IMG/VR virus record: IMGVR_UViG_3300042866_001263
Length of the DNA: 64,000 bases
Reading direction: 5' to 3' (one strand)
Source: a virus
Lineage: Duplodnaviria > Caudoviricetes
The notes under the pieces were generated by a model, which worked only from the letters and a program-made list of their open reading frames with translations, was not told the origin of the DNA and did no database searches. The position numbers and the translations under genes are program-made. Below, one piece after another: positions 13,423 through 56,136 of this stretch. The stretch's first letter is position 1; each line of letters opens with the position of its first letter.

Positions 13423-13481
13423 TTTTTGAAAATGGTTTTTTGAAAACCTCTGAAAGAAAAAAATTTCCCCCAGAAAAAATC

Positions 13482-14690: not shown

Positions 14691-15083
14691 ATGCCCGAAT
14701 TTCAGACGTTCAAAGATTTGAGCGTTACTTTTAAGAAGCATCCAGTCACTGATGATCTTGTCACAGTGAAGGATAAGGCTGCGATATCGCAGTCTATTGT
14801 TAATCTGCTTCTTACTAGTAAGGGTGAGAGATTATTTCAACCAAATTTGGGTTCTGGTATATACCGTAGTTTATTTGAACCTTTAGATTATGGTACTGCT
14901 GGTCTTATCCGAGCAGAGGTTGCTGACGTTCTAGAACGTTACGAACCAAGAATTGTTGTCAGAAAAATTATTTGTATGCCAGATTTTGACAATAATGGGT
15001 ATTCAATTGAGATTACCTATGAAATTCGTGGAAGAGAAGACACACCTGTAGCAGTCGAATTCTTTCTAGAGCGTACTCGATAA
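14691..15083 (+). CDS. gp25: baseplate wedge subunit gp25
   Basis: AISQSIVNLLLTSKGERLFQPNLGS...EPL...YEPRI. Confidence 0.92.
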   Translation: MPEFQTFKDLSVTFKKHPVTDDLVTVKDKAAISQSIVNLLLTSKGERLFQPNLGSGIYRSLFEPLDYGTAGLIRAEVADVLERYEPRIVVRKIICMPDFDNNGYSIEITYEIRGREDTPVAVEFFLERTR

Positions 15084-16879: not shown

Positions 16880-16883
16880 GTAG

Positions 16884-25800: not shown

Positions 25801-27245
25801 TAATAACTGCACAAATACAGTTACTTGAAAATACTGGATCAAATCTATCAAGAAAGCATATAGAATTTTTTGGTAGAGTTTCTCCAAATAGAGATGAAAT
25901 AGAAGTAATTGATATTTTCTACAATAAAACTCAAGTAATTAATCAAATTTCTGGCAGAGTTGCTGACATTGTTTCTACATCAGTTCTTACAACTAACAGA
26001 CAAATTACCACATCTTTTGAAAATCTAATTCCAAATGATGCTTTAACTAATGTCAATTACTATGCTACTGGTGCTTATCTAGATGTAGATTTAGCAATTA
26101 CTGACAATATTGTTTATGTTTCTGATACATCTAAATTTAAATCCAATGGTTATTTACTAATAGGCGATGAAATTGTAAGATACTACAGAAAACTAAATGA
26201 TCGTTTCCTTAAAGTACAAAGGGGTCAATCAAACACAACTGCAAAGTTATGGCTAGCTGGAACATTCTTACGTCAAATACCAGATCCAATTTCTACTGTA
26301 TTTGGTGGCGTTTCTATTATCGAATCTCAGTCTCAGATTGTTAGCATTCAGGGTGGAATTGGAACTGTGAATCTGTCACAGAGAACTACTCAGACACAAA
26401 ATGTAATTCCATCTCCAACTATTATATCAACTTCAAACTTTATTGAAATTGGAATTCTTCCTGTAGTTTCATTAACTTCTACATCTAATCTTACTGCAAA
26501 TACATTTATTGTATTTGATATTAATATTATTTCATCCGTTCAATCCTCGTATTATGGATTACAACATTCTTCTATAGTTCAATCAATACAATCTGAATTA
26601 GATATCAGTAAAGGATCATTAGAATTTTTACTAATTCCACCACCTTCTGGAGTTGTAGATGGTTATGTGGAGAGTATTTTTATTTCTGATCCACTTCAAA
26701 CTAGATTAAATGGATTTATAGATCTTGTAAACACCAATGATCAATATTCAGTAACTTTGAGAAATGGAACTTCAGTAGTTATTAGAAACTCTGTATTTGG
26801 AGTTGATACTCAATATATCGGTGACTATACTCCCACAAACGCTGGACATAGAATATCTCACTTCTCTGGAATATTTGACGATGGATCTTCTGGTGTTTCT
26901 GGATTGACAATAAACGAGATTGATACATACTATCCTTCCCTAACATTACAAGATTTTACTGATAGGGCAAATTCTAGTTACACTATTTCTGGAGAATACT
27001 TCAATCTTCTTCCACCATCTATTCAAAATCCAGTAACATTATCACAATCATCTGGATCTATTGGATCTACAATATCAGTTCAAAAAACAACATATTTTAA
27101 ATCAAGCGGATACATTTTAACAGGTAATGGTGGAGTAATTCAGTATACTGGAAAAACTTCAACATCATTTACTGGATGTTCTGTGGTTAGGGGATCGAAT
27201 ACGTTAAGTGTTGGCACAGAAATCATTCCATTCCAATTGACATAA
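16884..27245 (+). CDS. gp7: giant baseplate wedge initiator (gp7-like), 3453 aa
   Basis: Position after gp6; LIKNIQKFYKAKGTDSSIKFIF; ILDSHFYQDYSYVI..HPAGFKLFG; repeated G.GY beta modules. Confidence 0.85.
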   Translation: MAVKTKRISTLIESQLPEFISSEYELFGKFVEKYYESQEVQGGPLDIISNIQKYLDIDYYEKSLLKQNTILVSSINNSATSITLEDASGFPEKNGYLKIGNEIIFYAERTGNVISECFRGVSGNISLGDLYEKSAFTTTSAESHSSGDLVLNVSNLFLYAIVKNFESQYLASFPEKYLRGEVDKRTLIKNIQKFYKAKGTDSSIKFIFNTIVTQDIEDKPSVYKPRDFTYKSSESDWINIYALKVKVVSGNPKTLIGKTIVQSPTDEYGYASATVDNVFADGTVDNEQIWNIVLAPETVNGLFSVSTKTRLEKDLLASSGSTKRVSVFSTLGWDQSGEILIDDEIIKFSDKNATQFIIESRGSTPVLHSKDAFVYKPVVLSGSGVKLISLGIVYNLIPTDTQPYSSVGDEIQISTPGFETADPKIVVTGTNQPRWILGQGNPVNIPTNPALASSLDDVPTDVSAIFEDDQYYYIASSSYPSYKILDGSTVDQQLLDQKQLRILRKFPTRTTEVYKTPKRDVGVLVNGTPIFSFRDEESIRFGILEEIKVDTQGTGYDKPPFVLLDGVPNQARAVLSGQVVEKIIVDTNTVFPRTPEVTVTSGRDAVVRAVVTKGKVTSLIIDNPGEYYSSPPIIRIRDNAGRGRFADYTAVVNTDGKITDFVQNAEGNFYNQSTVIVDVIPVGRGASGIPYLKEWNKNRFAKYSTRLDTEYGYIFENYNSVLKYGYGHVANPKALRVALNDNINIAGAEPSTKTHSPIIGFAYDGNPIYGPFGHQDALNSQSPIVRMTSSYSLNNNRSQGPSLTIYPIGSFVNDYRYIHKSGSLDQNNGRFCVTPDYPQGTYAYFLTIDSNQVPQFPYFVGENFYSLPVDSNYNSNINQADIPKKSKRLFIPGMPRNGDGVIAQIAEVKSGTVDSISILNSSDNFSVNSKVYFDNSGTEGKEAATVVSFVKGKPVNYLYSKENKVVQLTTVQTAYLFANDTLSQPASGAYGEIVGTVANDNLIVLKNVIGTFNGTGTFSAAIKTFSILIDQNSSYTEGAILSLTDGINLPVATAQVLEGTSSQNIVKIKVLTGTWSVDDNYFIQSSDLFNTSGSRIVTLTSLSDGLVPFDVNQSVALVETTVDHGLGIGDEVKVDILPNDVTKTKTYYLRKRLYQTVKLKAPSYQSSINYTGVGRFEILNGGAFYTPGTYTNVSLTGGSGSEAKATIVVSSSGVVSSVTLQDGGSGYRKADYLSVSDEALSRSNTATSGSSRLTLYVDHAGFAIGSTKLIVDSTIGISVGDLLGVGKEVVQVSSILNNTITVLRAKDGTVEGDHFNGEIVYLYKPKYNFTNNFQLSPSSLSGRIKNYNPETQEVIITFDYATQKTNAEKVELTTSFFDSSVPQRLVAIDSIEDVSYKFEFSADNVNFVSNPNIDLQEYYNYKFDTSHSSLTGTYFDISPSKNFNIITEEKISSVILPGNPGSFTYVKFGFGSALSENNYSTKKGTQFSNFYYFDKNSIVDSEGKYFKIITDPLQGTKKVTYVTPNRFVYQLNSTPLWDGSGVITYTTSGEFAIGQIDQIKMINLGLNYKKVPVIIGCDPTRNYRAKATVLYDTSTNTITDVRVDDTGSNYINPRIIITKGDGVDASFNIIVRDGKIFSIVVDNPGKGYTFAPEISIIEGSVVAYAESTSIGVPQSVRILQNGASFHLDKTISSSFTSKYIFGLSSIVGNYQRGEIVVQKINNVEVARAVVSEWRSGSNLLKVEKITGIFRRGYPVQSILTNASGLIKSVFVSSFQDEIASFYDNLGYYSSDRGKIGVSNQKILDSHFYQDYSYVIESKTPIEKWRDLIKSTTHPAGFKLFGQVDVESTAQSEMPGQSHNTNSHFSIIQLWDPNKNKITVENTKRTITQIVQKVENQRIRRGIGSAAPSEFNFSEYRAFEIKLSAPFDGYYDTDGILQGTTIFQLRNSNTNAPFTPLSATNLIITLDGILQEPGVAYTVQNDTIVFSKPPLGAGLERTGNNLTDLTSYRGVTFYGKYFAFKDNQYNNRYLKKIRNIFQRSGRWLDAANQIDRNRTFIIEEAVGYGKNKYPTLDWSTKLDDYQRDIGYILDAYQHDIRFGGNIKTVDYIGIFRNNSDYDYITKNKTKSLDIFEYATRLASLAIRNWDIVEENVSYTQGSTTVTVSNTDKLVVGMYVSSGNAFSQNTRITSINNSTQITVSNAALINSVSISGSPYNATFYLNGINNGTYYDASNLILANKLYLQEEVSEYIYDNYSLPTTDKQKCKRDLGYLIDAVVYHLRFGGNEKIVEFARSYYEFYGYPYGEKLTRINRSQEETNAAIDAWETLGDLMILAMKNQLSSGAYTLITPVIDNTILSDPILPLCEEVTSSINTMIDIVKDIISDGAGIVQITPINLNKSGYWTNTLTYSNYNIINDPLLLAQECDNVISSVDSLYANVKDILDKKTVQRSLPDYIDGSNKVFELYWEDGTEVITDEDEDLFLTINAVLQRPKYNQEYPRFDSYYIDRTVIPNLLVFDVAPIWDQDFSAKSIGEATAVEKVVGIGVGNYKRLTIDYNLVNDVKSGPFLILDVEDYTVQNIEEPDFMYVFLDGVLQRQGYSYTVSGPNITFNVPILKEMKIDIRYLYGRDIGQVLNIFDFNPDTFYARSKVNLTVTSGLEDFIKYYWMGDKIGTPIHAYQEGTNGRCEVIGEISNILSNGNSLSFDVFGNNYAIDVSKPVFFAVRGFYNINTQLTISNATVAKETDESGRLILSDLNQIWSGTIIGKSYRLPFIGLSNSDKIRIDGQDSFREIKKLPGTTTSKEHRNYQQLSNSLFGSVDIETYNGITRGEGLSVVCTIQNGKVVALTWNQRSYDPITQPTAYQYYNPPILQFIPQDGNGGGARANVLVSKGQVISVDLIDGGSGYTQAPKIVVARGYDVLNTRDIGVSLINISMSPYVENAGLNIISTINVLGNQVASVFSVTSVVLESPINTDRVITAQIQLLENTGSNLSRKHIEFFGRVSPNRDEIEVIDIFYNKTQVINQISGRVADIVSTSVLTTNRQITTSFENLIPNDALTNVNYYATGAYLDVDLAITDNIVYVSDTSKFKSNGYLLIGDEIVRYYRKLNDRFLKVQRGQSNTTAKLWLAGTFLRQIPDPISTVFGGVSIIESQSQIVSIQGGIGTVNLSQRTTQTQNVIPSPTIISTSNFIEIGILPVVSLTSTSNLTANTFIVFDINIISSVQSSYYGLQHSSIVQSIQSELDISKGSLEFLLIPPPSGVVDGYVESIFISDPLQTRLNGFIDLVNTNDQYSVTLRNGTSVVIRNSVFGVDTQYIGDYTPTNAGHRISHFSGIFDDGSSGVSGLTINEIDTYYPSLTLQDFTDRANSSYTISGEYFNLLPPSIQNPVTLSQSSGSIGSTISVQKTTYFKSSGYILTGNGGVIQYTGKTSTSFTGCSVVRGSNTLSVGTEIIPFQLT

Positions 27246-37326: not shown

Positions 37327-37533
37327 ATGGATTATATCAAAGTTAGTGGGCATGATGGTCTCGTGAGGGATGAAAACACAGGCGCCATCTTGAATTTGGA
37401 CGATTCTGCGATAGAAGCAAGGCGCAAATCAAAACACCTTGGTTCCGCATTAGAAGACATAAATATGTTGAAGAATGAAATCTCTGAAATCAAGTCCCTA
37501 CTGCAAGAGTTAATAAAACATGGCAATACTTAG
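37327..37533 (+). CDS. small conserved virion-associated protein
   Basis: [19 protein letters not shown] followed by a C-terminal coiled coil. Confidence 0.8.
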
Positions 37534-40500
37534 AAACGTTGCTAGAACAGATACCTTTGAGCAACAAAGGGTAAAAATTAATGAAATTGCTTCTGACCTG
37601 TTTACGGTTCAGACAAGCGTTGGTGCTGGCGCATTTAGTATGAGTGATGGCACTGTTCAAGCGCCAGCGTTATTCTTTACCAATGCTAATGATGTAGGTA
37701 TTTTCAGAGGTGGTCCAAAATCATTATATATTGCTGCAGAAGGAAAATCTGTAGCTTCTTTTGATAAGTCATATCTCACATCTTTGCAGAATTTTAGAAC
37801 TTTGGTTTCTGCAATTCCAACTGGAGATGGTGGAATTACACTAAGTAACGGAGGTTCATTATATTACGGAGGAACTTTTTCCAGTGTTCCATTAACAGGT
37901 GGATCTGGAAATGGAGCAAAAGCTACCTTAACAGTAATTCCAATTGTAGGAACTATTACTAATGGTGGAACTGGGTATGTTGGTGGTAGTTATGTAGACG
38001 TTCCCCTCATCAATGGTTCTGGATCTGGAGCAAAAGCGATTATAACTGTTTCTCCATTTACAGGAAGTATTCAACGAGGTGGAGCTGGTGGAGATATTGG
38101 TCAAAATCAAACACAAATTTTCACTAATGTTTCACTAACTGGTGGTTTTGGAAATGGAATGAGAGCCGACATTACTGTTGGTGTTGCTGGTCCTGTTACT
38201 GCTGTTACTGGAGTTAGTATAATCAATCAGGGTTCTGGTTATCAAACTGGAGATGTTCTGAGTGCTGTACCAAACACAATTGGTGGTGTTACTGGATTTC
38301 AATATGTAATTAATGGTGTTGGTAACGTATCTGCTATTAGTGTTTTGAATGGTGGCAATAACTTATATACAGTAGGAAATACTCTATCCGTAAATAATTC
38401 TAGTTTAGGTGGTAGTGGTTCTGGATTTGTATTTACTATTACTGGCGTAGGTCAAGTAACAAATGCAGTAATTTCGGATGGTGGGGATGGTTACTTAACG
38501 AATGATGTTCTATCAGTAAATAATACCGAATTTGCGGCTACTGATACTTATTATGTTAAGATGTATCTAACTCAATTATTGACATTTAGTGGTACATTAC
38601 CAACAACAAATTTTGATGTTGGACAGACATTAACATACAACGGTTTATCAAAAACAATTGTAAAGAAATACACGTCTGGAAGTAATATAGAAGCAGTAAT
38701 TATTCAGGTAGATGCCAATAATTTAGATTATAGTCCAGGTCTTAGTGCAACATGTAATGGTTCAACTGCCGCTGTAGCTTCAATACAGACTGCTTTAAAT
38801 TATTATTTTACTGAGCCGAATGCATCTTCTACATCACCTTACACAAATCTTCCAAATTTCACCTTTAAGAAAAACAGAAGATATATTTTCAATCAACAAG
38901 ATTTTAGTAATAACACACACCCATTAAGGTTCAGTACGACTAGAGACGGATGGCATACTGTTATTAGCGGAGAAGGAGCACAACGAGTTTTTGGTGAAGA
39001 ATATAACGGTCCAGAAGTAAATTATGAGTATGGTGCAAATATTATTTCAATCGTTCCAAGTGATGACACCCCAACAACATTATATTATTATTGCGGAAAC
39101 GGTAATGATTTAGCACACCTAGATGAAGGTGGTTATAATAATAGAGAGGCAGTTATCACTATTAGTGGCAGTGATCCAGTAAGTGGTAGTGGTCTACAGA
39201 TTACTGTTGGAACAATCAATACTGCCAGTAATATTGTATTAAACAGAGATGGTTCTGCTACTTTAGGGAGTTTGACCTCAGGACCTGGAACTTTTACTGG
39301 TGCGGTGTCAGCAGCATCTCTATCTACAGCAGGTAATTTTTCAGTAAATAATACAAAATTTACTATTGCTTCATCAACTGGTGATACTTATATTGATGGT
39401 GGATTGACAGTAAATGGAGAATTGGCATTCCTTGGTGATGCTTCTTTAGGATCTACTCTATATGTTGATTCTGTAAATAATAAAGTATCCATCAATAGAG
39501 ATCCAGCAGTAACTGCTTTAACATATGATTTGGAGATTGTTGGTAGTTTATATAATGATGGCGACGTTGTTTTAGCAGAGACTGCACTATCGTCAGCAAT
39601 TATTGGAGATGTCGCAAATATTTCTGGTACTCCAAAACTTGGAGTTGATGGAAGCATTTATTCCGATGGTTCTTTCCTAGGAAATCCAACAGGAAACATT
39701 AAAATTCCTGCATATAGTTTTGATTCAAATACCAGATATGGATTATCATTCAATCCAACAAATTCCACATTATCCATCGCCACTGGTAGCGGAGAAACGG
39801 TAAGATATGGAGACTTATTAACATCTTTCTATAGAAATATTGATTTTGTAAATACAACTATTACCTCAACAACTCTTGTTAATGGTGCTGGATACACAAA
39901 TGGTTCTTATTCTGGATTGCAACCAACTGGTGGAACAGGTACTGGATTAACTGTAAATGCTATTGTTGCTTTTAGAGTTAATATACCAACTGCTGGTGCT
40001 GGTTATACACCTGGAACATATGATAATGTGCCACTAACTGGTGGTGATGGAACTGGAGCACAAGCTACTATTGTGATTGGACCTTCTGGTGGAGTAACCG
40101 AAGTTATTGTCACAAATGCTGGTAATGGATTATATGCTGTAGGTAACTCATTAGCGTTTGCATATACTTCTCTCACTACAATTGTTGGTGGATCACCTGT
40201 AACATCAACTGTTCCAACAACCGTTGCTTCTCTATCGGTTTCTGTTTTGGGAGCAGTAACTAAGGTAACAATCACTGACAGTGGTGATGGATATGTTACT
40301 GGAGATGAATTGACTGTTACTCCACCAGGAACACCAACAATAGTATCAAAAATAACTATTGGAACTACAACTAATTCTATAACTGCTGGTGTTAATAAAT
40401 CTACTGGAACAATTACAGCTCAATCTATCAATACTCTAGGTTCTGGTATTCTCGTAGATAACAACCTATCTATCGATGGCGTTACAATATCTTCTACACA

Positions 40501-41650
40501 GAATGAAGATATTGTCATTGCTCCTGGTGCTTCATCTAAGATCCTTTCCGTTTCTGGAACTGGTGGTGTAAAACTCCCAGTTGGAAACTCTACTAATAGA
40601 CCTTCTGCTTCTACTGCTGGTATTGTTAGATATAACAATCAAACATCACAGTACGAGGGTTCGAATGGTGTAAACTTCATCTCTCTAGGTGGAGTAAGAG
40701 ACGTTGATGGAAATACGTATATTATCGCTGAAGAGACTGTAGGTGCTAATGACAATATCTTATACTTCTTCAACGATAATTATAACTCAGCAAGATTAAA
40801 CAGAACAGAGTTAGAACTAACAACTGCCAACAAAATTTCTTCTAAAGATACGGATGGCAAGTTTGTATGGAAGGCAAATACAGCATATCTTCTAAATGCA
40901 TATGTTTATTATGGCGATAACATTTATAAGGTAACCACTGCTGGCATAACTTCAACACAAGCACCAACACACACATCTGGATCAGTTACCGATGGAACTG
41001 CAGTTCTTGAATATTACAGCGATGCATATGCAAATCTTGAGATAAGAGCAGATGAAGTAAAGATTGGAATTAGATTAAACGTAAATGACAAACTTGCTTT
41101 ATATTCATATAACACAAGTAATCTAATTTTTGAAAATCAAGTTGATAATTTCCAGTTTGCGTTTGGAAATATTATTGGAGTACCAGATACTTTCCTAACA
41201 TTAGATACTGCTGGCACTCTAAAGATCAACAGAAATTATGATACATCTGGTCCAACAGATAATCAAATTATTTTAGACAAAACACTCAAGTATATTGAAT
41301 TGGATGATGTTATTTTATCAACTGCAGATTCAACTTTAGTAAAAGGAATTACTAACACAGGTGCTGCAATTGTTTATAACTCAACCACGCATAAAGGAGC
41401 TAAAGTTGTTGCAGTTGCTGATAATATCACAACTGGTGATAGACATATTGTTGAATACAATGTCATTCACAAAAACTCAAATATATATGTTAATGAATAT
41501 GGCAATTTAGATACTGGAACAGAGCAGTTCTCAGCAGCATTTGATTTTGATGGATCTGGTAATGTTAGAGTAACTTATACAGTATCTGACGCCGTTGCCT
41601 CTGGTAACAATATTGTGATCACTACTACCAAAACTCAAATCAAGAAGTAA
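37520..41650 (+). CDS. tail fibre / baseplate-associated structural protein, 1376 aa
   Basis: N-terminal [15 protein letters not shown], Gly-rich G.GY repeats, [14 protein letters not shown], cupredoxin-like and CBM-like inserts. Confidence 0.8.
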
Positions 41651-41656
41651 TAAAAG

Positions 41657-42163
41657 ATGGCAACTACTATCAAGACTTTTAACTCAGAAGGTGGGTTTGG
41701 TGTAAATCAAGTCACACTTGTTACCAATAAATTAGATCTCCAAAATGTCAACACTTTCAGTTTAAAAAATTCAAACTATGCAGATGCTACTAGAACTGAT
41801 TACATCCTTCGTGGATTGAATACAGCAGTTCTAACTTTAGATGGGACTTTTCCTATCATATTAGGATCAAATACTATCAATTTTATTACTGGATATATTG
41901 TTGCTGTAAATCCCACTGGATCAGGGCACTATTCTGTAAAGTTAGAATCGGCAGTAACTTGTGATACAAATGGTGACGTTCAAGTTCTATCAGAACTATT
42001 CACTACTATTAAAGACAGTATCCCTAGTTTGGAAACATGGACTGTTTCCAGTTACGATGCTGGATCACCAAATCAATTTAGTTATACCACATCAAGAGGT
42101 GGTACAACTGACACTATTAAATGGATTGCTAATACTCAAGTTGTGTCAGTTTCCTGGTCCTGA
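41657..42163 (+). CDS. virion structural protein
   Basis: 168 aa beta-rich ORF within the tail cluster (FNSEGGFGV). Confidence 0.7.
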   Translation: MATTIKTFNSEGGFGVNQVTLVTNKLDLQNVNTFSLKNSNYADATRTDYILRGLNTAVLTLDGTFPIILGSNTINFITGYIVAVNPTGSGHYSVKLESAVTCDTNGDVQVLSELFTTIKDSIPSLETWTVSSYDAGSPNQFSYTTSRGGTTDTIKWIANTQVVSVSWS

Positions 42164-42211: not shown

Positions 42212-45200
42212 ATGAGTTTAGAATTTAATGCTGATAAGCAGATAATCAAATCAACAAATCCTCGTATTATTGGTAGTGGAGACTTTACTATTAGATCAGG
42301 CAGTGGTTCTGATGAAAAGGAAGTCTTTAGGGTTCAACTAGATAATACCACAAAACTTCCCCGTATTGGTGTCAATAGAACTGGGGAAAAAATTGAGAAA
42401 ATTTTAATCAATCAGGGTTTTAATGGAAGTGGATATACCACACAACCATCTGTATTAATTGATCCACCAAGTCTTCCTGGTGGTATTCAGGCACAAGCTT
42501 CTGCTATTATTTCAGCTGGATCGGTAGTTGCTATTATTGTTGATAACGTTGGTTCTGGTTATACTTCTGCTCCTTCCGTAACTATTACTGGAGGTAATGG
42601 TAATGGAGCAGCTGCTACAGCGTATCTTGATACTGTAGATTATGAACTAGATGTTAATGGTGCTATTCGTACATCTACTTCTATTATTTCTGATACTGCA
42701 AGAATTTTAAACCTTGATATCGATAACTTTGTAACCGCTGATGCTAAGTTTCGTGCTCCTTCATTAAAGACTTACGCAAATAATACTGGCACTTTATGGG
42801 CCTCATCAACATCCGTAAGTATCAATTCAACTTTATATTTTGGTAATAACATTTACCAAGCATTAAATACTGGTCTGAGTGGAAGTGTGCCACCAACTCA
42901 TTCAGATGGCATAGTTTCAAATGGTACAGTAAGTCTCAAGCATATTGGTTATAGAGTATCAAGTCCTCTACTTAAAGGATATAATGAGGATATGAGTTAT
43001 CCTCGTTCAATTACTCCACCTTTTGGAGATGATTCCGATAAAATCGCTACCACAGAATACGTTTTAAACCTTGCTACAAATGACGTTGGTGGTCGTGTTT
43101 ATGTTTCTGCTGAGATTGGTAACGATTCAAATAATGGCAGATCTGCTGCTGCTCCTGTAAGAACAATCAAGAGAGCATGTCAGATTGCTTCCCAGACAAA
43201 AGGAATTAAAGAAACGGTTGTTGTTTCTGGTGGTGAATATGTAGAAGATAACCCAATTTCCATTCCAGCAGATTGTTCAGTTGTTGGTGACTCACTTCGT
43301 ATTGTTATTGTTCGTCCGAACAATCCGAACAAACACATGTTCAAGTTTGCGGACAAGAACTATATTTCTGGTTTGACATTTAGAGATAAGATTGATAGTA
43401 ATGGAGATCCTATTGCTACTTGGAAATATGCTTGTGTATTTGACGACAAGCAAAGAATTTATTATGATCCAGCGTCTGGTGGAGATTTCAAGAGAAGTTT
43501 TCCAATCGGACATCAGATTTTTGGACCAGCAAAAATTAGAGTTACTTTCCAAACAAACACAGGTGGTACAGCAATTGCTGAAAACGAATATGTAACTGGT
43601 GTTAACACTGGAGCAGTTGGTTTAGTTACGGCAAGAACATTTACATCTGGAACTGTAAGTGGAACTGTTGATGTTAGAGTTCTAAGTGGTTCTTTCCAAA
43701 CTGGTGAAACATTTACATATCCTGGTGATGGTGCAAGATCTTGGCAAGCAAATACTGTTTATACTTTAAACACTATTATCTACAATGCCAATAATGTTTA
43801 TTCAGTAACTACTGCAGGTACTTCTGGTTCAACTTCACCAACTCATACAACTGGAGCAGAGGCTAACGGAACTGCTACTTTAACTTGGATCCGCAACGTA
43901 TATAACTTAATTGCTGTTCAAGTTGAATCAATTAGAGCGGAAGGTGAAGTTGTAGATCATATTACAGATTTAACTACCACACTACCAATTACAAGAGTAG
44001 ATGGATCACTACAAGCAGATCCAGCAACTGGTGGTATTGTTTTATATACCAATCCATTAGTTGGAAGAAACAATTTTCATAACTTTAAAGAAAATCAAGA
44101 AATTGAAATTTCTGGGTTACCAACATCTACCCCAGATCTTTCATCTCTAAATGGTAAGCAAAGAGTTTTCAAAATTATTCGTGATGCGGATGGAAGATCC
44201 AGACGTATTGTTCTATACAAACAACTAGCAGCATTTACAGATGTCAACTATATTCCAGTAAATGCCAGTGTAAAATCAGCAAATAATTATATTACACTAT
44301 CGCTACTAAACTCTCCAAACAAGTTTCCACTGCCAAACTTTGTTTTAAGACGTTATCAGGATGCTTGTAATCTAATCAGAAATAATATTGACTTCATTAA
44401 AGATGAAGCATATTTACAAATACAAGATGAGTTTAGCCCCAACTTCTCAATCACTTCAATTCAAACAACATCTGGTACTGGTGGTGATGCTGGATATGTA
44501 ATTTTTAGAGTTACAACAACTGGCAATCATGGTTTCTATCTTAATGATACGGTTTCCATTTTCAAAAATGGTTTAACCAATAATATTAACGGAACATTTA
44601 CTGTAACTAATAGAGTAAGTGCAACAGCATTTGAAGTAAAATGGTTGGGTGTTATTGGAACACTTGGTTTAACTTCAGGAACAATTTACACCACATCATC
44701 AACTCCAGCTCTATCTGCGAGTGCTTACGTTCAAAGATCATTTAGTGTACCAAACGAAGCAAAGTGTCGTAGAGATATTGGACACGTGGTAAATGCCATC
44801 ATCATGGATCTTGAGTATGGTGGAAACTATAATGTTATTGAAGCTGCTAAAACTTATGTAACTGGTACTCAGATTGGATACGTTAGCAACGAAATTGCCG
44901 AAACAGTTAGATCAGTTGAGATTGTACGCCAACTTTGTATTCTTGCGATGCGTCGTTGGAGAACTGGAAATGGACAAATAGCAGATCCTCTGTACACTCC
45001 AGTTTACTCTAATGTAGCACGTTATTTTGATACATCAGTAGTACAGGATACATCAAGTCCAGCATGTAATGATGTTGCTTCTGCAATCACAACGCTTGCT
45101 TACGTTTATACAGATACATTATCAAATAACGCAACTGGAACTCAATTAGATGCAGGATATTTAATTTCCAGAAACGCAGACTTTATTGCTTCAGAAGCAC

Positions 45201-48200
45201 TTGGATATGCCAAGGCACTTTATCCTGCGCTTGGATTAACTACAGATCAAGAAAGAAAGTGCAAGAGAGATATTAGATATGTTCTTGCTGGATTAAGAAG
45301 AGACCTTATCTTAGGTGGCAATGCTGGTATTGTAACCGCTGCAGAATCATATTTTACTGGAACAGAACTTACTGGCATTCCTTCTGCTGAGTTAACAGCA
45401 ACTCGTTACGCATTCACTAAAGTCAAAGAGCTAGCACAACTAGCGATGCGTAATTGGAAAACGGGTGCTAATGGAACAGGAGCAACATATACTCCAACTT
45501 ACGAAACATCAATTTCATTATTTACAGATGCAACAATTCTGGTAGATCCAGCAACTTCAAAGTGTGCTGGTATTCTCAGCGCAATTGATACTGAGATGAC
45601 ACTATTGGATGGTATCCTTGCTGGAACTACAGTTGCAGGAACTACCACAAAAACATATGGCACCCTATATTCCCCAACGATTACATATCCAGATGGTGCT
45701 TTATATGATGCTGACAATAAGTATATTACTCCACGAGGAGTATGGGATGATCTGCCAGCAATTGAAGCATCGCCATATATTCAAAACGCTTCAGTTATCT
45801 CATTCTTAGGTGGTGGTGGTTGTGAAATTGATGGAGATAAGGTAACTCAACCAAACTCACCATTTGCAGGATTAGAACTTAATGGTGCAGCATCTTATCC
45901 AAACCAGGGCAAATCCATGGTTGCTGCTCAGTTCACCATTGTTTCGTTTGGTGGAACAGGATACAGAGTAGTCAACGATGGTTACTGCCAGTTGGTTTCC
46001 GTATTCGTTCTATTCTGTGCTGATGGTGTTTATGCTGATAGTGGTGGTTATGCTTCTGTTACCAACGCTGCTACCAACTTTGGTATCTATGCTCTAAGAG
46101 CTCGTGGATATAGAAAAGATCCATACACATTTGATATTGGAACCATTACTAATATCACCACATCTGTTACAGGAAAAACAGAAATTACTGTTAGTGGATT
46201 AGGTAGAAGACCATTTGAACATTACGTTGTTAAGGTTGATGGTTATACTAACACAAACACTAACATTGAATACTTTGTCGAATCTGTAAGAAACGTAACT
46301 GTTGGTCCTCCTTTCACAGCAACAATTGTTCTAAATGAAGGAACAGATTTCACGAAGATATCTACAGGAACTCCAGTAGGCAATTCGAATGGAGAGTTTG
46401 TTGGTAAGACAATTAAACTACACAGACCTTCGATTGTTAACTCATCTGGTCACACTTGGGAATTTGCTGGATCTGGCACAAACTACAATGCTCTACCAGA
46501 AAACGGTGGTATTAAGATTGAAGCATACGAACAGGTTTCGGAAAACTATGGTCGTGTTTATACCTCTGGTACTGATGAACTTGGAGACTTCAAAGTAGGT
46601 TACTTTGCTCGTATTGAAAACAGAACTGGTGCTATTACCTTCACAGGTACTGTTACCATCTCGGAAGTTGAATTCCTAAAACTAAAAGGTGGTGACGTTG
46701 TTGTTACTGGTTTCGATGCTTCTAATACTCTTGGTGGTGCTTTTGCTACTGACTCCAAACTACCCACGCAGAAGGCAGTTAAGGATTATATCTCGAATAA
46801 CCTTGGACCATACATCAACAAGCCATATTCCACTAATGCCGTCCCTAGGGCGCTTGTAGAACTCACAGACAGCGGTAAGATCTCTATTGACCAGATCCCT
46901 GCACTAAGACCTTTCAACGTCTTCACAGTGGCAAATCAGGCGGCTCGTCTTGCGTTAGAGGGAGCACTTGCTGGTGACATTGCTATTCAATCCGATACAA
47001 CTACATCATATATTCTCAATAATGACCTAACCAGTTTGTATCTTGGTTTCCCAGTAGATACTGCTTTAGTATTCAATACTGGAAATATCTTTACTGGTTC
47101 TGGATCAGGTGGTCAAATTCAAGCAACAGAATACAGACAAGGTGTTGTCTGGAAGATTAACATTACCAATCCTGGTTCTGGTTATACTGTTGCACCAAAT
47201 ATTGTTATCTCTGGTGGCAATCCTCAAGGTGGTGCAGTATCAGCAACTGCTACTTGTACGATTGCTAACGGTCAAGTTGTTTCTGTAACAATCACGGAAA
47301 ACAATGGTTATATTGGTGGTACAGGATACACAACACAACCATCAGTTATCTTCACTGGTCCTGGTGGTGCTGGTATTACTGCTACTGCTTCTGCTCTGAT
47401 TGAAAATAGATTGTATGGTGATATCGTCAACAACATCAAGATTGTTGACACAGATACAGTTACTTCAAATAATACTCCAACTGGAACTGTTGTTGATATC
47501 TCAAGAGTTGTCAATACTTCATCGAAGATAAATGGCAACTGGGTATCTCTATCATCCAACCAAATCTCAGCCGATGCGATTACTTCTGGTGTTATTGCTA
47601 CGACCCGTCTGGCACAAAACTCATCAGAAGCAAACTCATTTACTTTCCTTAGAGGCGACCAAGCTTATGCACCAGTCCTCCAATCACTAAAAGGAACTGA
47701 AACAAGATACTTTGCCAAGTTGAATAATGCTGTTTCCTCTGGATCAAGCACATTCGTATTCACAACAAACGCAAATGTTCTCAAGGGTCATGGAATTGTC
47801 AGTGACGTTACTGGCATCCCATCAGGAACATTAGTTAATTCTGTTGTAACTGCTGCTGGATTTACCACGGTTCAATTGAATAACCCAGTAACAGCAAACA
47901 TTTCTGCTGCTACAATTATCCAGTTTACACGTCCAGCATCACCACTAATTATCGATGCTGCTTATACAGTAGGAAACTTTGTTGATAGTGTTGTTATTGC
48001 TAATGGTGGCAGTGGATTTACAAATGGTTCTTACTTCGACGTTTCATTGTCGGGCGGAACTGGAACTGGTCTGAAAGCTAACATCATTGTTTCTGGTAAT
48101 GCAGTAACTACAATTACCGTAACGAATGGTGGTGTCAATTACAATGCTGACTTTAGTGTTACTTCAGCACCATCTATTATTGGTTCTGGATCTGGTCTAG

Positions 48201-50476
48201 TTCTTCTAGCAAAAACAGCTACGACTAATAAGAACTATGCTAATGCTGCAGTTGATATCAGGAGAGTTGATGATCTAACTATATCTGCTGACCCATATGG
48301 AACAGCAGGTATTTGCCGTTTCCAAAAGTCACAGTTTACTCTAGGTGCTGCTGGCAACGGATCAGTAACACTCAAGACTGGTGCTGATAGTGGATTGGAT
48401 GCTGACTTGCTTGATGGCGCACAAGGCGCTTATTACTTGAATGCTAGCAATCTAAATGCTGGTACTCTGTCAGTTGATCGTCTTGCTGGAACATACAACA
48501 TCTCCATCTCAGGTCAGTCTGGTAACACATTACGTCTGATTACCTCTACAAATAACCCAACATCTTCACCTTCCCCAAGCGCATTTGCTGAAGGTATTAT
48601 TGCTGACACTAGAAACAATACTTCAGATAGTTTGGAAGATGGTGGAACCAGACACCTCGTTCTCACACTAAGGAATGGATCGTCTGGTTTCGATGCTACT
48701 TTTGGTGGCGTAAGGCAACTTGCCTTCACTGACAACAACAATATGTGGCTTCGTGGTTCTGGAACTGGAGTTACCACATTTGGTTCCTGGGCTAAAGTCT
48801 GGACCGATCTAAATGATGGTTCTGGAACTGGTTTGGACGCTGACAAACTTGATGGTCGCCAAGGAGCATTCTACCAAAATGCTTATAATATAAACGCTGG
48901 CACTATTAGTGATAATCGCTTACCATCATACGCTACTCAAAAGAGTTTCAATAATAGCGTAAAAGTTCTAACAACGACCAATAATCCTTATTATGACATT
49001 TACGTTACTGGTTTTGTATTGACAGCATCTCCATTCCTTGCTGGTCAAAACGTAAACCTATATGATGTCAACTCACAAGGAACTGGAACCATCCTCATCA
49101 CCAATGTAATTACATATAATGATGCTGATGATATGATGGATTATAGCATCATTACTGGTGTTCTAACTACTGGTACATTTAATGGTGCTCAGACAATTGG
49201 TACTGCATCAAACAGAGTTGCTTTCCAAGACTATAGCCTAAACTCAAGTGGAACCTTTGAAACGGCATCACTTGTCAGCAGTACTGGAACTGCTCTACTA
49301 AAACTTGGTAGGAAGGATGGCACTGCATCATCCCCTGCTATCTACTTCAGCAGCAGCTCTTCAGCAGCATCCAACTATAACGTTGCTCTTGTTGCTTCTG
49401 GTGGTAGCAATACTGATGGAAGTGGTAACCTCAACATTGTTGCTGGTAATGCAAGTGCAGTAACGATCAACAACAACGCTATCTGGAACGCTGGTAACCT
49501 AACTCCAGCAACCAACAACGTTGCGAATACCGTTGTTCTCCGTGATGCTTCTGGTAACTTCGCTGCTGGCACAATCACCGCTAGCGTTACTGGTGCTGCT
49601 TCTCTCAACGTATTGAAAGCAGGCGATACGATGACAGGTCAGTTGAAGATTGCCTTTAACAGTGGTCTAGGCATTAGCGAGACTGGCGGAAATGGAGCAA
49701 GATTAACAATTACTTCATCTTCTGCTGGATCTATTCTAAATGTTGTTGATAACTCAGCACTTATTTTCCAAACAGATAGTGGTGTAGAGCAAGGTAGATT
49801 TAGAAATAATGCTGCTGGAGGCGGATTATTAGTCAATACTGCTCTTCGTTTGGTAAATGGTAATATTACACAGGCACAAACTGGAACAACTGCTATTGAT
49901 AATAGCTTTACTTCAGGTAGTAATCCACAAGCATGGAGAATGATTATTCCAGATAATGCCAATACTTCTGGTTTTGGAGTTGGAGCAAATAATCTTGGAA
50001 TTTATTATAATGGATTATCGGATTACCACGCTAAGTTTGTAACTGGAGCAAATAATGTATTTTTCCCTGGAAGAGTTTGGGTTGGTAATAGCAATCAAGC
50101 AGCTACAACCAGTTATCAACTTCAAGTAACTGGTTCTTTTGCCGCTACATCTAAGTCATTCCGTATTCCTCACCCAACCAAAGAGAACCATGACCTCGTT
50201 TATGGTTCGTTGGAAGGACCAGAGCACGGCGTATATGTTCGTGGTAAGTCATCTGGTGTCGTTGAGTTACCTGATTACTGGGGTGCTCTTGTTGATGAAA
50301 ACACCATCACCGTTCAACTCACCCCAATCGGCAATCATATGTCATGGGTTGAGAAGATTGAAGATAACAAGATCCTTATTGGTGGAGGTGAAGCATTCTA
50401 CTTCGTTCAGGCGATGCGTAAGGATATTGAGAAGTTAGAGGTTGAAGTTGAGTTACCTGTCGAGGAGGAAGAGTGA
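42212..50476 (+). CDS. long tail fibre protein, 2754 aa (beta-helix region, LDADxLDG repeats, C-terminal chaperone-like domain)
   Basis: YVSAEIGNDSNNG...TIKRA beta-helix start; GLDADLLDG and GLDADKLDG repeats; C-terminal KSFRIPHP...GSLEGPEHGVYVRG. Confidence 0.85.
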   Translation: MSLEFNADKQIIKSTNPRIIGSGDFTIRSGSGSDEKEVFRVQLDNTTKLPRIGVNRTGEKIEKILINQGFNGSGYTTQPSVLIDPPSLPGGIQAQASAIISAGSVVAIIVDNVGSGYTSAPSVTITGGNGNGAAATAYLDTVDYELDVNGAIRTSTSIISDTARILNLDIDNFVTADAKFRAPSLKTYANNTGTLWASSTSVSINSTLYFGNNIYQALNTGLSGSVPPTHSDGIVSNGTVSLKHIGYRVSSPLLKGYNEDMSYPRSITPPFGDDSDKIATTEYVLNLATNDVGGRVYVSAEIGNDSNNGRSAAAPVRTIKRACQIASQTKGIKETVVVSGGEYVEDNPISIPADCSVVGDSLRIVIVRPNNPNKHMFKFADKNYISGLTFRDKIDSNGDPIATWKYACVFDDKQRIYYDPASGGDFKRSFPIGHQIFGPAKIRVTFQTNTGGTAIAENEYVTGVNTGAVGLVTARTFTSGTVSGTVDVRVLSGSFQTGETFTYPGDGARSWQANTVYTLNTIIYNANNVYSVTTAGTSGSTSPTHTTGAEANGTATLTWIRNVYNLIAVQVESIRAEGEVVDHITDLTTTLPITRVDGSLQADPATGGIVLYTNPLVGRNNFHNFKENQEIEISGLPTSTPDLSSLNGKQRVFKIIRDADGRSRRIVLYKQLAAFTDVNYIPVNASVKSANNYITLSLLNSPNKFPLPNFVLRRYQDACNLIRNNIDFIKDEAYLQIQDEFSPNFSITSIQTTSGTGGDAGYVIFRVTTTGNHGFYLNDTVSIFKNGLTNNINGTFTVTNRVSATAFEVKWLGVIGTLGLTSGTIYTTSSTPALSASAYVQRSFSVPNEAKCRRDIGHVVNAIIMDLEYGGNYNVIEAAKTYVTGTQIGYVSNEIAETVRSVEIVRQLCILAMRRWRTGNGQIADPLYTPVYSNVARYFDTSVVQDTSSPACNDVASAITTLAYVYTDTLSNNATGTQLDAGYLISRNADFIASEALGYAKALYPALGLTTDQERKCKRDIRYVLAGLRRDLILGGNAGIVTAAESYFTGTELTGIPSAELTATRYAFTKVKELAQLAMRNWKTGANGTGATYTPTYETSISLFTDATILVDPATSKCAGILSAIDTEMTLLDGILAGTTVAGTTTKTYGTLYSPTITYPDGALYDADNKYITPRGVWDDLPAIEASPYIQNASVISFLGGGGCEIDGDKVTQPNSPFAGLELNGAASYPNQGKSMVAAQFTIVSFGGTGYRVVNDGYCQLVSVFVLFCADGVYADSGGYASVTNAATNFGIYALRARGYRKDPYTFDIGTITNITTSVTGKTEITVSGLGRRPFEHYVVKVDGYTNTNTNIEYFVESVRNVTVGPPFTATIVLNEGTDFTKISTGTPVGNSNGEFVGKTIKLHRPSIVNSSGHTWEFAGSGTNYNALPENGGIKIEAYEQVSENYGRVYTSGTDELGDFKVGYFARIENRTGAITFTGTVTISEVEFLKLKGGDVVVTGFDASNTLGGAFATDSKLPTQKAVKDYISNNLGPYINKPYSTNAVPRALVELTDSGKISIDQIPALRPFNVFTVANQAARLALEGALAGDIAIQSDTTTSYILNNDLTSLYLGFPVDTALVFNTGNIFTGSGSGGQIQATEYRQGVVWKINITNPGSGYTVAPNIVISGGNPQGGAVSATATCTIANGQVVSVTITENNGYIGGTGYTTQPSVIFTGPGGAGITATASALIENRLYGDIVNNIKIVDTDTVTSNNTPTGTVVDISRVVNTSSKINGNWVSLSSNQISADAITSGVIATTRLAQNSSEANSFTFLRGDQAYAPVLQSLKGTETRYFAKLNNAVSSGSSTFVFTTNANVLKGHGIVSDVTGIPSGTLVNSVVTAAGFTTVQLNNPVTANISAATIIQFTRPASPLIIDAAYTVGNFVDSVVIANGGSGFTNGSYFDVSLSGGTGTGLKANIIVSGNAVTTITVTNGGVNYNADFSVTSAPSIIGSGSGLVLLAKTATTNKNYANAAVDIRRVDDLTISADPYGTAGICRFQKSQFTLGAAGNGSVTLKTGADSGLDADLLDGAQGAYYLNASNLNAGTLSVDRLAGTYNISISGQSGNTLRLITSTNNPTSSPSPSAFAEGIIADTRNNTSDSLEDGGTRHLVLTLRNGSSGFDATFGGVRQLAFTDNNNMWLRGSGTGVTTFGSWAKVWTDLNDGSGTGLDADKLDGRQGAFYQNAYNINAGTISDNRLPSYATQKSFNNSVKVLTTTNNPYYDIYVTGFVLTASPFLAGQNVNLYDVNSQGTGTILITNVITYNDADDMMDYSIITGVLTTGTFNGAQTIGTASNRVAFQDYSLNSSGTFETASLVSSTGTALLKLGRKDGTASSPAIYFSSSSSAASNYNVALVASGGSNTDGSGNLNIVAGNASAVTINNNAIWNAGNLTPATNNVANTVVLRDASGNFAAGTITASVTGAASLNVLKAGDTMTGQLKIAFNSGLGISETGGNGARLTITSSSAGSILNVVDNSALIFQTDSGVEQGRFRNNAAGGGLLVNTALRLVNGNITQAQTGTTAIDNSFTSGSNPQAWRMIIPDNANTSGFGVGANNLGIYYNGLSDYHAKFVTGANNVFFPGRVWVGNSNQAATTSYQLQVTGSFAATSKSFRIPHPTKENHDLVYGSLEGPEHGVYVRGKSSGVVELPDYWGALVDENTITVQLTPIGNHMSWVEKIEDNKILIGGGEAFYFVQAMRKDIEKLEVEVELPVEEEE

Positions 50477-51159
50477 TGGGTATTGGATATAACACTTTCT
50501 CTTTTTCTAATGGATTAATATTTTGTTATGATGCCAGAAATACTAAATCGTATTCTGGTTCTGGAACTACTTTTAATGATATTGGTGGTGGATTGACAAG
50601 TAGTTCTGGAAGCTTTGCTTCATATAATTTAAATCCTGGTCATATTTCCTTTAATGGATCTAATGGTTCTGGCATTCAGTTTCCATCTAGTTCCATACAT
50701 GATACCCAAACACCATCGGTTGAAGTTTGGGTGAGAACAAATGCACTTTCTCAAAATGGTTTTTGGTTTGAAAAAGGAACTGTAAATACACAGTATTCTT
50801 TGTTTCAGGAAGGTGGAGTAATTCAGTGGAGACAGTATTTTACTAGTGGACAGGGATTGACTAACTTATCAACAACAACATCTTCTTATATAACAACAGG
50901 TGTTTGGTATCAAGTGGTTGGAACTTTTACTGCTGGCAGTAGAAAATTATATATTAATGGTTCTCTAGTTAATTCGGATACTCAAAGCGGAACAATAAAT
51001 ACAGGCCAAGCTGGTATTGGGTTGGGTTCCTTTGGAGGTGGAAATACTGGATATCAATTTAATGGTGATCTGGCAATAGTCAAGGCATACAACGTGGAAC
51101 TTTCTGCATCTCAGGTCTTACAAAATTTTAACGCACTCAGAGGGAGGTTTGGAATATAA
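50476..51159 (+). CDS. LamG/concanavalin A-like lectin domain protein 1
   Basis: GLIFCYDARNTKSYSGSGT...WYQVVGT..KLYING...FNGDLAIVKAYNVELS. Confidence 0.8.
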   Translation: MGIGYNTFSFSNGLIFCYDARNTKSYSGSGTTFNDIGGGLTSSSGSFASYNLNPGHISFNGSNGSGIQFPSSSIHDTQTPSVEVWVRTNALSQNGFWFEKGTVNTQYSLFQEGGVIQWRQYFTSGQGLTNLSTTTSSYITTGVWYQVVGTFTAGSRKLYINGSLVNSDTQSGTINTGQAGIGLGSFGGGNTGYQFNGDLAIVKAYNVELSASQVLQNFNALRGRFGI

Positions 51160-56134: not shown

Positions 56135-56136
56135 AA

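What the first reader, a model, noticed from the sequence alone, without database searches (positions are those of the whole stretch)
44360..45625. Two phycobiliprotein-like (globin-fold) domains with chromophore-type cysteines inside the long tail fibre
Seen: DAGYLISRNADFIASEALGYAKALYP...RKCKRDIRYVLAGLRRDLILGGN...GIPSAELTATRYAFTKVKE...SKCAGILSAIDT, and a second copy DACNLIRNNIDFIKDEA...[insert]...AKCRRDIGHVVNAIIMDLEYGGN...PACNDVASAITT. Known: phycocyanin alpha reads [26 protein letters not shown]...KAKCARDIGYYLRM.TYCLVAGG. There the Cys of C.RD (Cys84) carries the bilin, Arg86/Asp87 contact it, and beta chains have a second bilin Cys (about 155) starting the last helix. Both phage copies match these segments in the same order (Cys codons 44765 and 45260; late Cys 45065 and 45563). 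Inference: the virion may display bilin-binding or phycobilisome-mimicking domains. This would offer a phage-encoded substrate for the bilin synthases and lyases (ho1, pcyA/pebS, cpeT) that many cyanophages carry, and could link adsorption to light.
Basis: partly seen in the sequence, partly recalled or inferred. Interest (0 to 1): 0.88.

Follow-up and report, generated by a model that had tools for sequence, protein, structure and literature searches.

The report
Phycobiliprotein-like domains in cyanophage tail fibre
A tail-fibre protein of a marine cyanobacterial virus contains two domains that are true relatives of the host's light-harvesting pigment proteins and keep their pigment-attachment residues, so the virus particle may carry pigment, which could explain why some of these viruses attach to cells only in light.

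Summary
Residues 714-1142 of the 2,754-aa fibre ORF (42212..50476, +) hold two paralogous domains (E 6e-23). Copy A is split by a ~100-aa beta insert. A profile of 114 copies finds almost only phycobiliproteins in the PDB (best E 3.9e-7), with the Cys on Cys84. The AlphaFold model (pLDDT 94) superposes on phycoerythrin/phycocyanin beta at Z 17 and 2.0 Å over 136 residues. It covers helices A-H and lacks the X-Y hairpin.

Across 1,519 copies, up to 35 per giant phage protein, Cys, Arg and Asp are kept in 98, 95 and 99%. In 45 orthologous fibres all four cysteines are invariant. By offset, the late Cys falls on the beta-153/158 site served by T-type lyases.

Circumstantial links:
- The domain and the phage lyase gene cpeT co-occur in 11 of 13 domain-bearing cyanophages, and cpeT is in none of 4 without the domain.
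- cpeT lies directly upstream of a giant domain-bearing fibre gene in six lineages.
- The three phages with light-dependent adsorption have the domain. The two that adsorb in darkness lack it.

Bilin binding is untested, and degenerate Cys-less copies exist. I found no publication. This scan noted the same domain earlier on other DNA and elsewhere in this genome.

The parts
42212..50476 (+). Tail-fibre ORF, 2,754 aa (P0001). It is the orthologue of S-PM2p091 'tail fiber protein' (T4-like GC 830).
   Evidence: ORF list; phrog_5342 tail fiber E=0; orthologues and the S-PM2 annotation with the same upstream 1376-aa and 168-aa genes.
44351..44434 (+). Copy A, helices A/B (aa 714-741), with Cys719.
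   Evidence: HMM match aa 714-749, i-E 1.8e-4; helices at 713-741 in the AF2 model; Cys719 kept in 44 of 46 orthologues.
44441..44737 (+). Beta-rich insert (aa 744-842) in the B-E loop of copy A. Its fold was not identified.
   Evidence: AF2 model of aa 700-1160 shows seven strands between the B and E helices, pLDDT about 70-89. No Pfam hit.
44756..45136 (+). Copy A, helices E-H (aa 849-975). Holds K-C852-R-R854-D855 and the late Cys952 at the N-cap of the last helix.
   Evidence: HMM aa 837-975, i-E 3e-32; model helices; Cys852 and Cys952 kept in 46 of 46, Arg854 in 38 of 46.
45137..45637 (+). Copy B, a complete phycobiliprotein-like core (aa 976-1142). Holds K-C1017-K-R1019-D1020 and the late Cys1118.
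   Evidence: HMM i-E 6e-48; AF2 pLDDT 93.9, pTM 0.90; Z 17.0 to phycoerythrin beta; Cys1017, Arg1019, Asp1020 and Cys1118 kept in 46 of 46.
23001..23474 (+). Degenerate third copy in the 3,453-aa gp7-position baseplate ORF 16884..27245 (aa 2040-2197). It reads Tyr-x-Arg-Asp and has no Cys.
   Evidence: HMM i-E 1.5e-24; column read-out.
23556..24035 (+). Fourth copy in the same ORF (aa 2225-2384), with KCKRDLGY and a late Cys.
   Evidence: Motif scan; HMM i-E 2.2e-35; column read-out.
37520..42163 (+). Two upstream genes (1,376 aa and 168 aa), in the same order as S-PM2p089 and p090, which are annotated 'virion structural protein'.
   Evidence: ORF list; S-PM2 annotation; same gene order on three metagenome contigs.
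14691..15083 (+). Baseplate wedge gp25 homologue. It marks the start of the T4-like baseplate/fibre module.
   Evidence: Pfam PF04965, E 1.6e-17.

Best explanation
Shown: nt 44351-45637 encode two tandem domains that descend from the phycobiliprotein (PBP) globin core. They have helices A, B, E, F, G and H and lack the X-Y hairpin. They sit in the shaft of a baseplate-attached fibre of a T4-like cyanomyovirus. Copy A carries a ~100-aa beta domain in its B-E loop. The domain is a widespread module of cyanomyovirus fibre and baseplate proteins, with 2 to 35 tandem copies per protein. Inferred mechanism: the fibre is made in a bilin-rich cyanobacterial cytoplasm. There the domains become covalently chromophorylated at the Cys84-type site (Cys852, Cys1017), with Arg and Asp holding the pigment. 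In this fibre lineage a second site, the beta-153/158-type late Cys (Cys952, Cys1118), would also be modified. That is the position served by T-type lyases, and the phage's own CpeT is the candidate enzyme. The virion would then display bilins on its fibres, and light absorption could change fibre conformation and so gate adsorption. My odds: homology at least 0.95; covalent bilin on at least some copies about 0.45; a causal role in light-dependent adsorption about 0.25.
For: Homology:
- Profile of 114 copies against the PDB: E 3.9e-7, hits almost all PBPs, Cys on Cys84.
- PF00502 matches 34 of 114 copies. Some orthologues already carry precomputed PF00502.
- AF2 pLDDT 93.9. The Foldseek top 50 are all PBPs. 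VIA-align Z 17.0, rmsd 2.0-2.3 Å over 136-145 residues, model 1-163 on beta 34-177.

Site conservation:
- Cys 98%, Arg 95%, Asp 99% over 1,519 copies.
- All four Cys invariant in 46 of 46 fibres.
- Model residue 144 (the late Cys) lies 19 residues before aligned end 163. That end pairs with 172, 177 or 184 in beta chains of those lengths, so the late Cys falls on Cys153, 158 or 165 (ungapped-helix inference). T-type lyases serve Cys153 (PMC10452541).

Host restriction: all 303 phage records with the domain are Synechococcus or Prochlorococcus phages.

Lyase link:
- Domain and PF06206 (CpeT) in 17 records: 11 both, 2 domain only, 0 lyase only, 4 neither; one-sided Fisher p 0.006.
- cpeT lies 0.07-1.5 kb upstream of, and co-oriented with, a giant domain-bearing fibre gene in S-PM2, Syn1, S-RSM4, S-CAM3, ACG-2014e and a complete IMG/VR relative whose copy-B region is 87% identical.

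Light: S-PM2, P-HM1 and P-HM2 need light to adsorb and have the domain. P-SSM2 and P-SSP7 adsorb in the dark and lack it. The cause is unexplained and does not depend on photosynthesis (PMC6628666).
Against: - No bilin has been shown on any copy, and I know of no report of coloured virions (own knowledge).
- The profile-to-PBP alignment places about 11 extra PBP residues in the B-E loop. In PBPs this loop helps cover the pigment (own knowledge). The X-Y hairpin is absent.
- The C-terminal half shows no sequence likeness to PBPs, so pocket residues there are unverified.
- In cultured phages 7 of 49 copies lack the Cys, including all three copies in P-SSM4, which still has a cpeT-like ORF. Arg is replaced by Asp or Thr in 22 of the 42 copies that keep Cys84, and by Leu in one more. 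The fold therefore works without the site.
- S-ShM2 keeps both Cys but has no PF06206 hit.
- The three domain-less myoviruses may be one clade, and gene order in T4-like cyanophages is conserved in general. So the co-occurrence and the synteny are not independent events.
- Asp+14 (98%) and Tyr+30 (99%) are near-invariant in the phage family. As far as I recall they are not conserved in PBPs, which hints at a structural network specific to this family.
Confidence: 0.45

Rival explanations
1. Apo structural module. A PBP gene was captured long ago and its compact helical core was reused as a stackable spacer for fibre shafts and baseplate arms. The Cys-Arg-Asp helix survives for folding or packing reasons, for example an Arg-Asp salt bridge and a small buried Cys. 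No pigment is bound.
For: Up to 35 tandem copies per protein look like a rod-building unit. Cys-less copies persist: the window's gp7-like copy 1 and all P-SSM4 copies. Arg is often Asp or Thr. Asp+14 and Tyr+30 are near-invariant in the family and, as far as I recall, not conserved in PBPs. The B-E loop is shorter than in PBPs, the X-Y hairpin is lost, and the C-terminal half has diverged beyond recognition.
Against: In PBPs, Cys84, Arg86 and Asp87 serve the chromophore rather than the fold (established knowledge). Retention at 98, 95 and 99% over 1,519 diverged copies, with mean column identity 18%, is hard to explain without a ligand. The late Cys sits on a second known bilin site and occurs only in copies that keep Cys84: 29 of 29. 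The domain is confined to phages of bilin-making hosts. There is linkage with cpeT.
Confidence: 0.38
2. The conserved cleft binds something other than a bilin, or the Cys forms a covalent cross-link or disulfide. Possibilities are a host surface ligand in a receptor-binding role, another tetrapyrrole or a metal, or a bond that stiffens the fibre outside the cell.
For: The fibre acts in oxidising sea water. Cys84 and the late Cys are lost together in degenerate copies. Copy A has a third conserved Cys, Cys719. Globin-like folds bind varied ligands, and AFDB neighbours include sensor-type globin domains.
Against: Family-wide the late Cys is present in only 32% of copies while Cys84 is present in 98%, so there is no obligate disulfide partner. 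If the late Cys matches beta-153/158, the two sites carry separate, well-separated chromophores in PBPs (established knowledge). No receptor-binding fold or metal motif was found. This rival gives no reason for Arg/Asp conservation or the cpeT linkage.
Confidence: 0.12
3. Chance or convergent likeness: an unrelated helical bundle that happens to carry K-C-x-R-D...G-G.
For: The window's own copies are not significant by themselves. The sequence signal is limited to helices A/B and E. Helical folds often give middling structural scores (note).
Against: Profile E 3.9e-7 with essentially only PBPs among the hits. The reciprocal PF00502 search hits 34 of 114 copies. Z 17 at 2.0 Å rmsd over the whole core, with the helix order kept, stands above the level of about 13-14 the tool gives for unrelated helical matches. 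The Cys-to-Gly-Gly spacing is 18 in both: Cys1017 to Gly1035, and Cys84 to Gly102 by counting in the chain printed.
Confidence: 0.03

Closest known systems
Phycobiliprotein alpha/beta subunits (Pfam PF00502: phycocyanin, phycoerythrin, allophycocyanin). C-phycocyanin alpha is the best sequence match; phycoerythrin and phycocyanin beta are the best structural matches.
   Same: Globin-like core with helices A, B, E, F, G and H in the same order. K-C-x-R-D-[IV]-G-[YL] on helix E, with the Cys aligned on Cys84. The same 18-residue spacing to the Gly-Gly turn. A second Cys at the position of beta-153/158. Made in the same bilin-containing cytoplasm.
   Different: No X-Y hairpin, so no canonical alpha-beta monomer or (alpha-beta)3 disc. 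A shorter B-E loop, or a ~100-aa beta domain inserted there. A long G-H loop. Covalently chained, 2-35 copies inside giant virion proteins. Extra near-invariant Asp+14, Asn+20 and Tyr+30. Not part of a phycobilisome. Chromophore not shown.
PBP-like domain of the core-membrane linker ApcE, and engineered smURFP (from allophycocyanin alpha)
   Same: A PBP fold embedded in a larger multidomain protein (ApcE). Bilin attachment without a separate lyase is possible in this fold (own knowledge). smURFP appears among the profile hits at E 0.005-0.015.
   Different: ApcE uses a different Cys position and sits in the phycobilisome core. smURFP is a laboratory product. Neither is a virion protein or a tandem array.
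Cyanophage bilin auxiliary genes (cpeT, ho1, pebS, pcyA)
   Same: Found only in cyanomyoviruses (PMC10452541). cpeT co-occurs with the domain and lies next to domain-bearing fibre genes.
   Different: They have been read as boosting host light harvesting. Here a phage-encoded substrate is proposed for cpeT. The synthases do not track the domain: P-SSM2 has no domain.
T4-like cyanophage tail-fibre and baseplate giants (phrog_5342, phrog_701, phrog_4527; T4-like gene clusters 830 and 734)
   Same: P0001 is a full-length member (phrog_5342 E=0) with conserved synteny.
   Different: These families are annotated only as tail fiber or virion structural protein. The PBP nature of their internal repeats is not in any paper I could find.

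Membership tests
Phycobiliprotein (PF00502) | Globin-like helical core (helices A, B, E, F, G, H) superposable on solved PBPs | tested here: met
   AF2 pLDDT 93.9. The Foldseek top 50 are all PBPs, TM 0.53-0.69. VIA-align Z 15-17, rmsd 1.9-2.3 Å, 130-145 residues, model 1-163 on chain 34-177.
Phycobiliprotein (PF00502) | Significant sequence match to the family model | tested here: inconclusive
   The window's copies give no PF00502 hit at E<=1. At family level the profile reaches E 3.9e-7 against PDB PBPs, PF00502 hits 34 of 114 copies with best E 8e-5, S-PM2's giant ORF reaches 30.3 bits summed against a 22.2 cut-off, and some orthologues carry precomputed PF00502. The C-terminal half alone finds no PBP.
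Phycobiliprotein (PF00502) | Cys84 thioether site with Arg86 and Asp87 on helix E | tested here: met
   Cys852/Arg854/Asp855 and Cys1017/Arg1019/Asp1020 align on Cys84/Arg86/Asp87. They are kept in 98, 95 and 99% of 1,519 copies.
Phycobiliprotein (PF00502) | N-terminal X-Y helical hairpin that forms the alpha-beta monomer | tested here: not met
   The domain starts at the helix that aligns with PBP residue 32-34. Successive copies abut with no room for a hairpin.
Phycobiliprotein (PF00502) | Covalently bound bilin chromophore | not testable with these tools
   Needs spectroscopy or mass spectrometry of virions or recombinant protein.
Phycobiliprotein (PF00502) | Assembly into (alpha-beta)3 discs, rods and the phycobilisome | not testable with these tools
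Loss of the X-Y hairpin argues against canonical assembly (inference).
T4-like cyanophage tail fibre (phrog_5342 / T4-like GC 830) | Full-length match to the family profile and conserved position after the baseplate genes | tested here: met
   phrog_5342 E=0, 3,672 bits. The S-PM2p091 orthologue has the same two upstream genes. gp25 lies upstream and gp13 downstream.

The most novel reading that the evidence does not exclude
Cyanomyovirus fibres are biliproteins. Phage CpeT attaches a bilin to the beta-153/158-type Cys of the virion's PBP-like domains, the Cys84-type site is filled by host lyases or autocatalytically, and the pigmented fibres act as a virion-borne photoreceptor that permits adsorption only in light. 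This would be the first light sensor built into a virus particle. It would also give the phage lyase cpeT a phage-encoded substrate.
Probability: 0.22. Interest if true: 0.95.

Novelty: new variant of a known kind. Interest (0 to 1): 0.8.

Why it matters
Phycobiliproteins are known only as light-harvesting antenna proteins and their engineered derivatives. Here the same fold, with its pigment site intact, is a mass-produced building block of virus fibres and baseplates in one of the most abundant virus groups in the ocean.

Two open questions become directly testable. The first is why several cyanomyoviruses adsorb only in light, independently of host photosynthesis (PMC6628666). The second is what the phage-encoded T-type lyase CpeT is for. 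If bilins are present, virions would be intrinsically fluorescent, which is useful for tracking. The domains would also be a new source of small, single-chain bilin-binding tags. If no bilin is bound, this is still a clear case of a host photosynthetic protein being turned into a structural module.

Tried and rejected
- Trimer test: complex prediction with three copies of aa 975-1145 returned 'no answer' (score 0.00). This is neither for nor against oligomerisation.
- Profile of the C-terminal half (A2) against the PDB: no PBP hit. The best hit was a pilin at E 0.014.
- Single-sequence Pfam scans of the window's copies found nothing.
So I did not test whether cellular genomes hold the phage-type domain, and I built no PBP phylogeny or hhalign comparison.
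- AFDB clusters gave only weak rows (E >= 0.14): phycocyanin alpha, a 'Phycobilisome protein' and sensor-type globin domains.
- No whole genome is held for the window, and its 177.6-kb source contig could not be searched. Bilin genes of this very genome are therefore unchecked. No bilin enzyme was found among ten ORFs from the first 15 kb of the window.
- Gasper et al. 2017 on phage CpeT is not held.
- tblastn with S-PM2 CpeT finds only 66 records against 303 with the domain, but it misses the short divergent CpeT that the HMM detects. I did not use this ratio.
- A strict 'late Cys requires phage cpeT' rule was rejected. S-ShM2 has the Cys without cpeT, and P-SSM4 has a cpeT-like ORF without any Cys.
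- Megablast of nt 44000-46000 against the phage collection found no near-identical record.


Full report
**Anatomy**

The finding lies in a 2,754-aa ORF, 42212..50476 on the + strand. This ORF is a full-length member of the cyanophage tail-fibre family phrog_5342 (E=0). It is the orthologue of S-PM2p091, and the same 1,376-aa and 168-aa genes sit upstream. gp25 lies at 14691..15083 and gp13 lies downstream. The window is therefore the baseplate/fibre module of an uncultured T4-like cyanomyovirus. The protein is encoded on a 177.6-kb metagenome contig.

**The repeat**

Residues 714-975 (copy A) and 976-1142 (copy B) are paralogues, 37% identical with E 6e-23. An AlphaFold model of aa 700-1160, built on 45 orthologues, has pLDDT 84.7 and pTM 0.77. 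It shows the parts of copy A in this order:
- helices at aa 713-741;
- a seven-strand beta insert at aa 744-842;
- helices E to H at aa 849-970.

Copy B is uninterrupted. Two more copies lie in the 3,453-aa ORF at the gp7 position, 16884..27245. One has KCKRD. The other is degenerate and has Tyr in place of Cys.

**Is it a phycobiliprotein relative?**

On their own, the window's copies are not significant. Pfam finds nothing. phmmer against the PDB puts phycoerythrin alpha first, but only at E 0.41.

The family gives a much stronger signal. A search of 1.84 billion representative proteins found 630 relatives, 133 of them at E<=1e-30. In the best 150 of these, a local HMM counted 1,519 domain copies, with up to 35 in tandem in proteins of 4,000-6,400 aa. 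One such giant sits beside T4 gp13 and gp15 genes.

- A profile of 114 diverse copies (A1) hit 100 PDB sequences, nearly all phycobiliproteins. The best was C-phycocyanin alpha at E 3.9e-7. Profile positions 6-61 aligned to residues 38-104, with the Cys on Cys84.
- In the reverse direction, Pfam PF00502 matched 34 of the 114 copies (best E 8e-5), while no other family matched more than 2.
- The model of copy B has pLDDT 93.9 and pTM 0.90. Its Foldseek top 50 are all phycobiliproteins. VIA-align gives Z 17.0 with rmsd 2.0-2.3 Å over 136-145 residues, model 1-163 on beta-chain residues 34-177.

The domain is therefore the whole globin core, helices A to H, without the X-Y hairpin. The C-terminal half alone finds no phycobiliprotein by sequence. 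Homology of that half rests on the fold.

**The site**

Conservation over the 1,519 copies:

| Position | Residue kept |
|---|---|
| Cys (Cys84 equivalent) | 98% |
| Arg, +2 | 95% |
| Asp, +3 | 99% |
| Asp, +14 | 98% |
| Asn, +20 | 81% |
| Tyr, +30 | 99% |
| Late Cys | 32% |

In 45 orthologues of this fibre (47-97% identical), Cys852, Cys952, Cys1017 and Cys1118 are invariant and Cys719 is nearly so.

The late Cys is model residue 144, which is 19 residues before the last aligned residue, 163. That residue pairs with 172, 177 or 184 in beta chains of those lengths. If the last helix is ungapped, the late Cys falls on Cys153, 158 or 165. This is the beta-155-type bilin site, which T-type lyases serve (PMC10452541). 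The step is an inference from alignment ranges, not a residue-level superposition.

**Counter-signals**

In 12 cultured phages, 42 of 49 copies keep Cys84. Among those 42, the Arg position is Arg in 19, Asp in 14, Thr in 8 and Leu in 1. All three P-SSM4 copies lack the Cys. The late Cys occurs only together with Cys84, in 29 of 29 cases. The fold can therefore work without the site.

**Distribution and context**

By tblastn, all 303 phage records with the domain are Synechococcus or Prochlorococcus phages. The named BFVD structural neighbours are Synechococcus phages or uncultured Caudovirales.

I searched 17 phage records with the A1 model and with PF06206 (CpeT):

| Domain | CpeT | Records | Phages |
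|---|---|---|---|
| yes | yes | 11 | S-PM2, P-HM1, P-HM2, P-SSM4, Syn9, S-SM1, P-RSM4, Syn33, Syn19, Syn1, S-SSM5 |
| yes | no | 2 | S-ShM2, P-SSM7 |
| no | yes | 0 | none |
| no | no | 4 | P-SSM2, S-SM2, S-SSM7, P-SSP7 |

One-sided Fisher p is 0.006, or 0.02 for myoviruses only. Neither figure is corrected for phylogeny.

In six lineages cpeT lies 0.07-1.5 kb upstream of a giant fibre gene (3.7-4.5 thousand aa) that carries these domains. The two genes are co-oriented and sit between gp5 and gp12. The lineages are S-PM2, Syn1, S-RSM4, S-CAM3, ACG-2014e and a complete 192.7-kb IMG/VR relative whose copy-B region is 87% identical. The intervening DNA varies: tRNAs, an HNH endonuclease, denV or a 2OG oxygenase. 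I could not check that.

**Light**

Published work shows that S-PM2, P-HM1 and P-HM2 do not adsorb in the dark, while P-SSM2 and the podovirus P-SSP7 do. [quoted passage not shown] The three light-dependent phages carry the domain and cpeT, and the two dark-adsorbing phages carry neither. This amounts to roughly two independent positives and two negatives, so it is a lead and not a test.

**Interpretation**

Homology to phycobiliproteins is secure. The most likely working model (about 0.45) is that the domains are chromophorylated in the infected cell and the fibre carries bilins. The main rival (about 0.38) is a pigment-free structural module. Phycobilisome mimicry is unlikely, because the X-Y hairpin is missing and fibres act outside the cell.

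**Novelty**

Six full-text searches aimed at a prior report found no paper describing phycobiliprotein-like domains in phage virions. Automated Pfam tables do flag PF00502 on some orthologues. This scan has recorded the same domain at least eight times on other DNA and elsewhere in this genome. Those notes agree with what I found independently.

What this report adds:
- the split architecture of copy A;
- invariance of all four cysteines in this fibre lineage;
- mapping of the late Cys onto the T-type lyase site;
- the cpeT-giant-fibre synteny in six lineages;
- the domain/cpeT/adsorption concordance, with its exceptions.

Noticed in passing
window 10000-14000: A GC-rich island (0.50-0.53, against 0.32-0.42 elsewhere) with only short ORFs on both strands and no Pfam or Rfam hit. 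It matches clusters of small hypothetical genes in S-WAM2, S-CAM4 and ACG-2014j at 70-75% identity.
   Followed up: partly
window 23001-23474 (ORF 16884..27245, aa 2040-2197): A degenerate phycobiliprotein-like copy with Tyr in place of the Cys (Y-x-R-D) sits next to an intact copy. It is a natural Cys-less control inside the same virion protein.
   Followed up: partly
window 56131-58201; also L009 4808-5389 (S-PM2) and L059 2073-2645 (Syn1): Two 2OG-Fe(II) oxygenase genes and a DUF6445 gene are chained after the fibre genes in the window. A 2OG-Fe(II) oxygenase also sits directly upstream of the giant domain-bearing fibre gene in S-PM2 and Syn1. This may be a fibre-tailoring enzyme.
   Followed up: no
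W06 (P-SSM4, NC_006884) 16642-17064: A 148-aa ORF matches Pfam CpeT above the cut-off (E 2.4e-10), although the 2010 review (PMC2984593) states that cpeT is absent from P-SSM4. A class of short, divergent CpeT-like ORFs (148-160 aa; 224 aa in Syn9) is also present in Syn9, Syn19, Syn33, S-SM1, S-SSM5 and P-RSM4.
   Followed up: partly
L009 (S-PM2 NC_006820) 8057-12884: The RefSeq record places 16 tRNA features inside the coordinates of the 3,779-aa fibre CDS, which reads as an open frame without stops in six-frame search. This is probably a coordinate error in the annotation.
   Followed up: no
window 50473-52459 and 29185-37317: Two small Laminin_G_3 (PF13385) proteins follow the fibre gene, and the 2,710-aa ORF upstream carries DUF4815 (precomputed Pfam on the source contig). 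These are likely distal fibre or receptor-binding parts.
   Followed up: no
window 6095-6913: A 272-aa ORF with a weak 4Fe-4S ferredoxin-type motif (Fer4, E 1.8e-4) lies upstream of the baseplate module.
   Followed up: no
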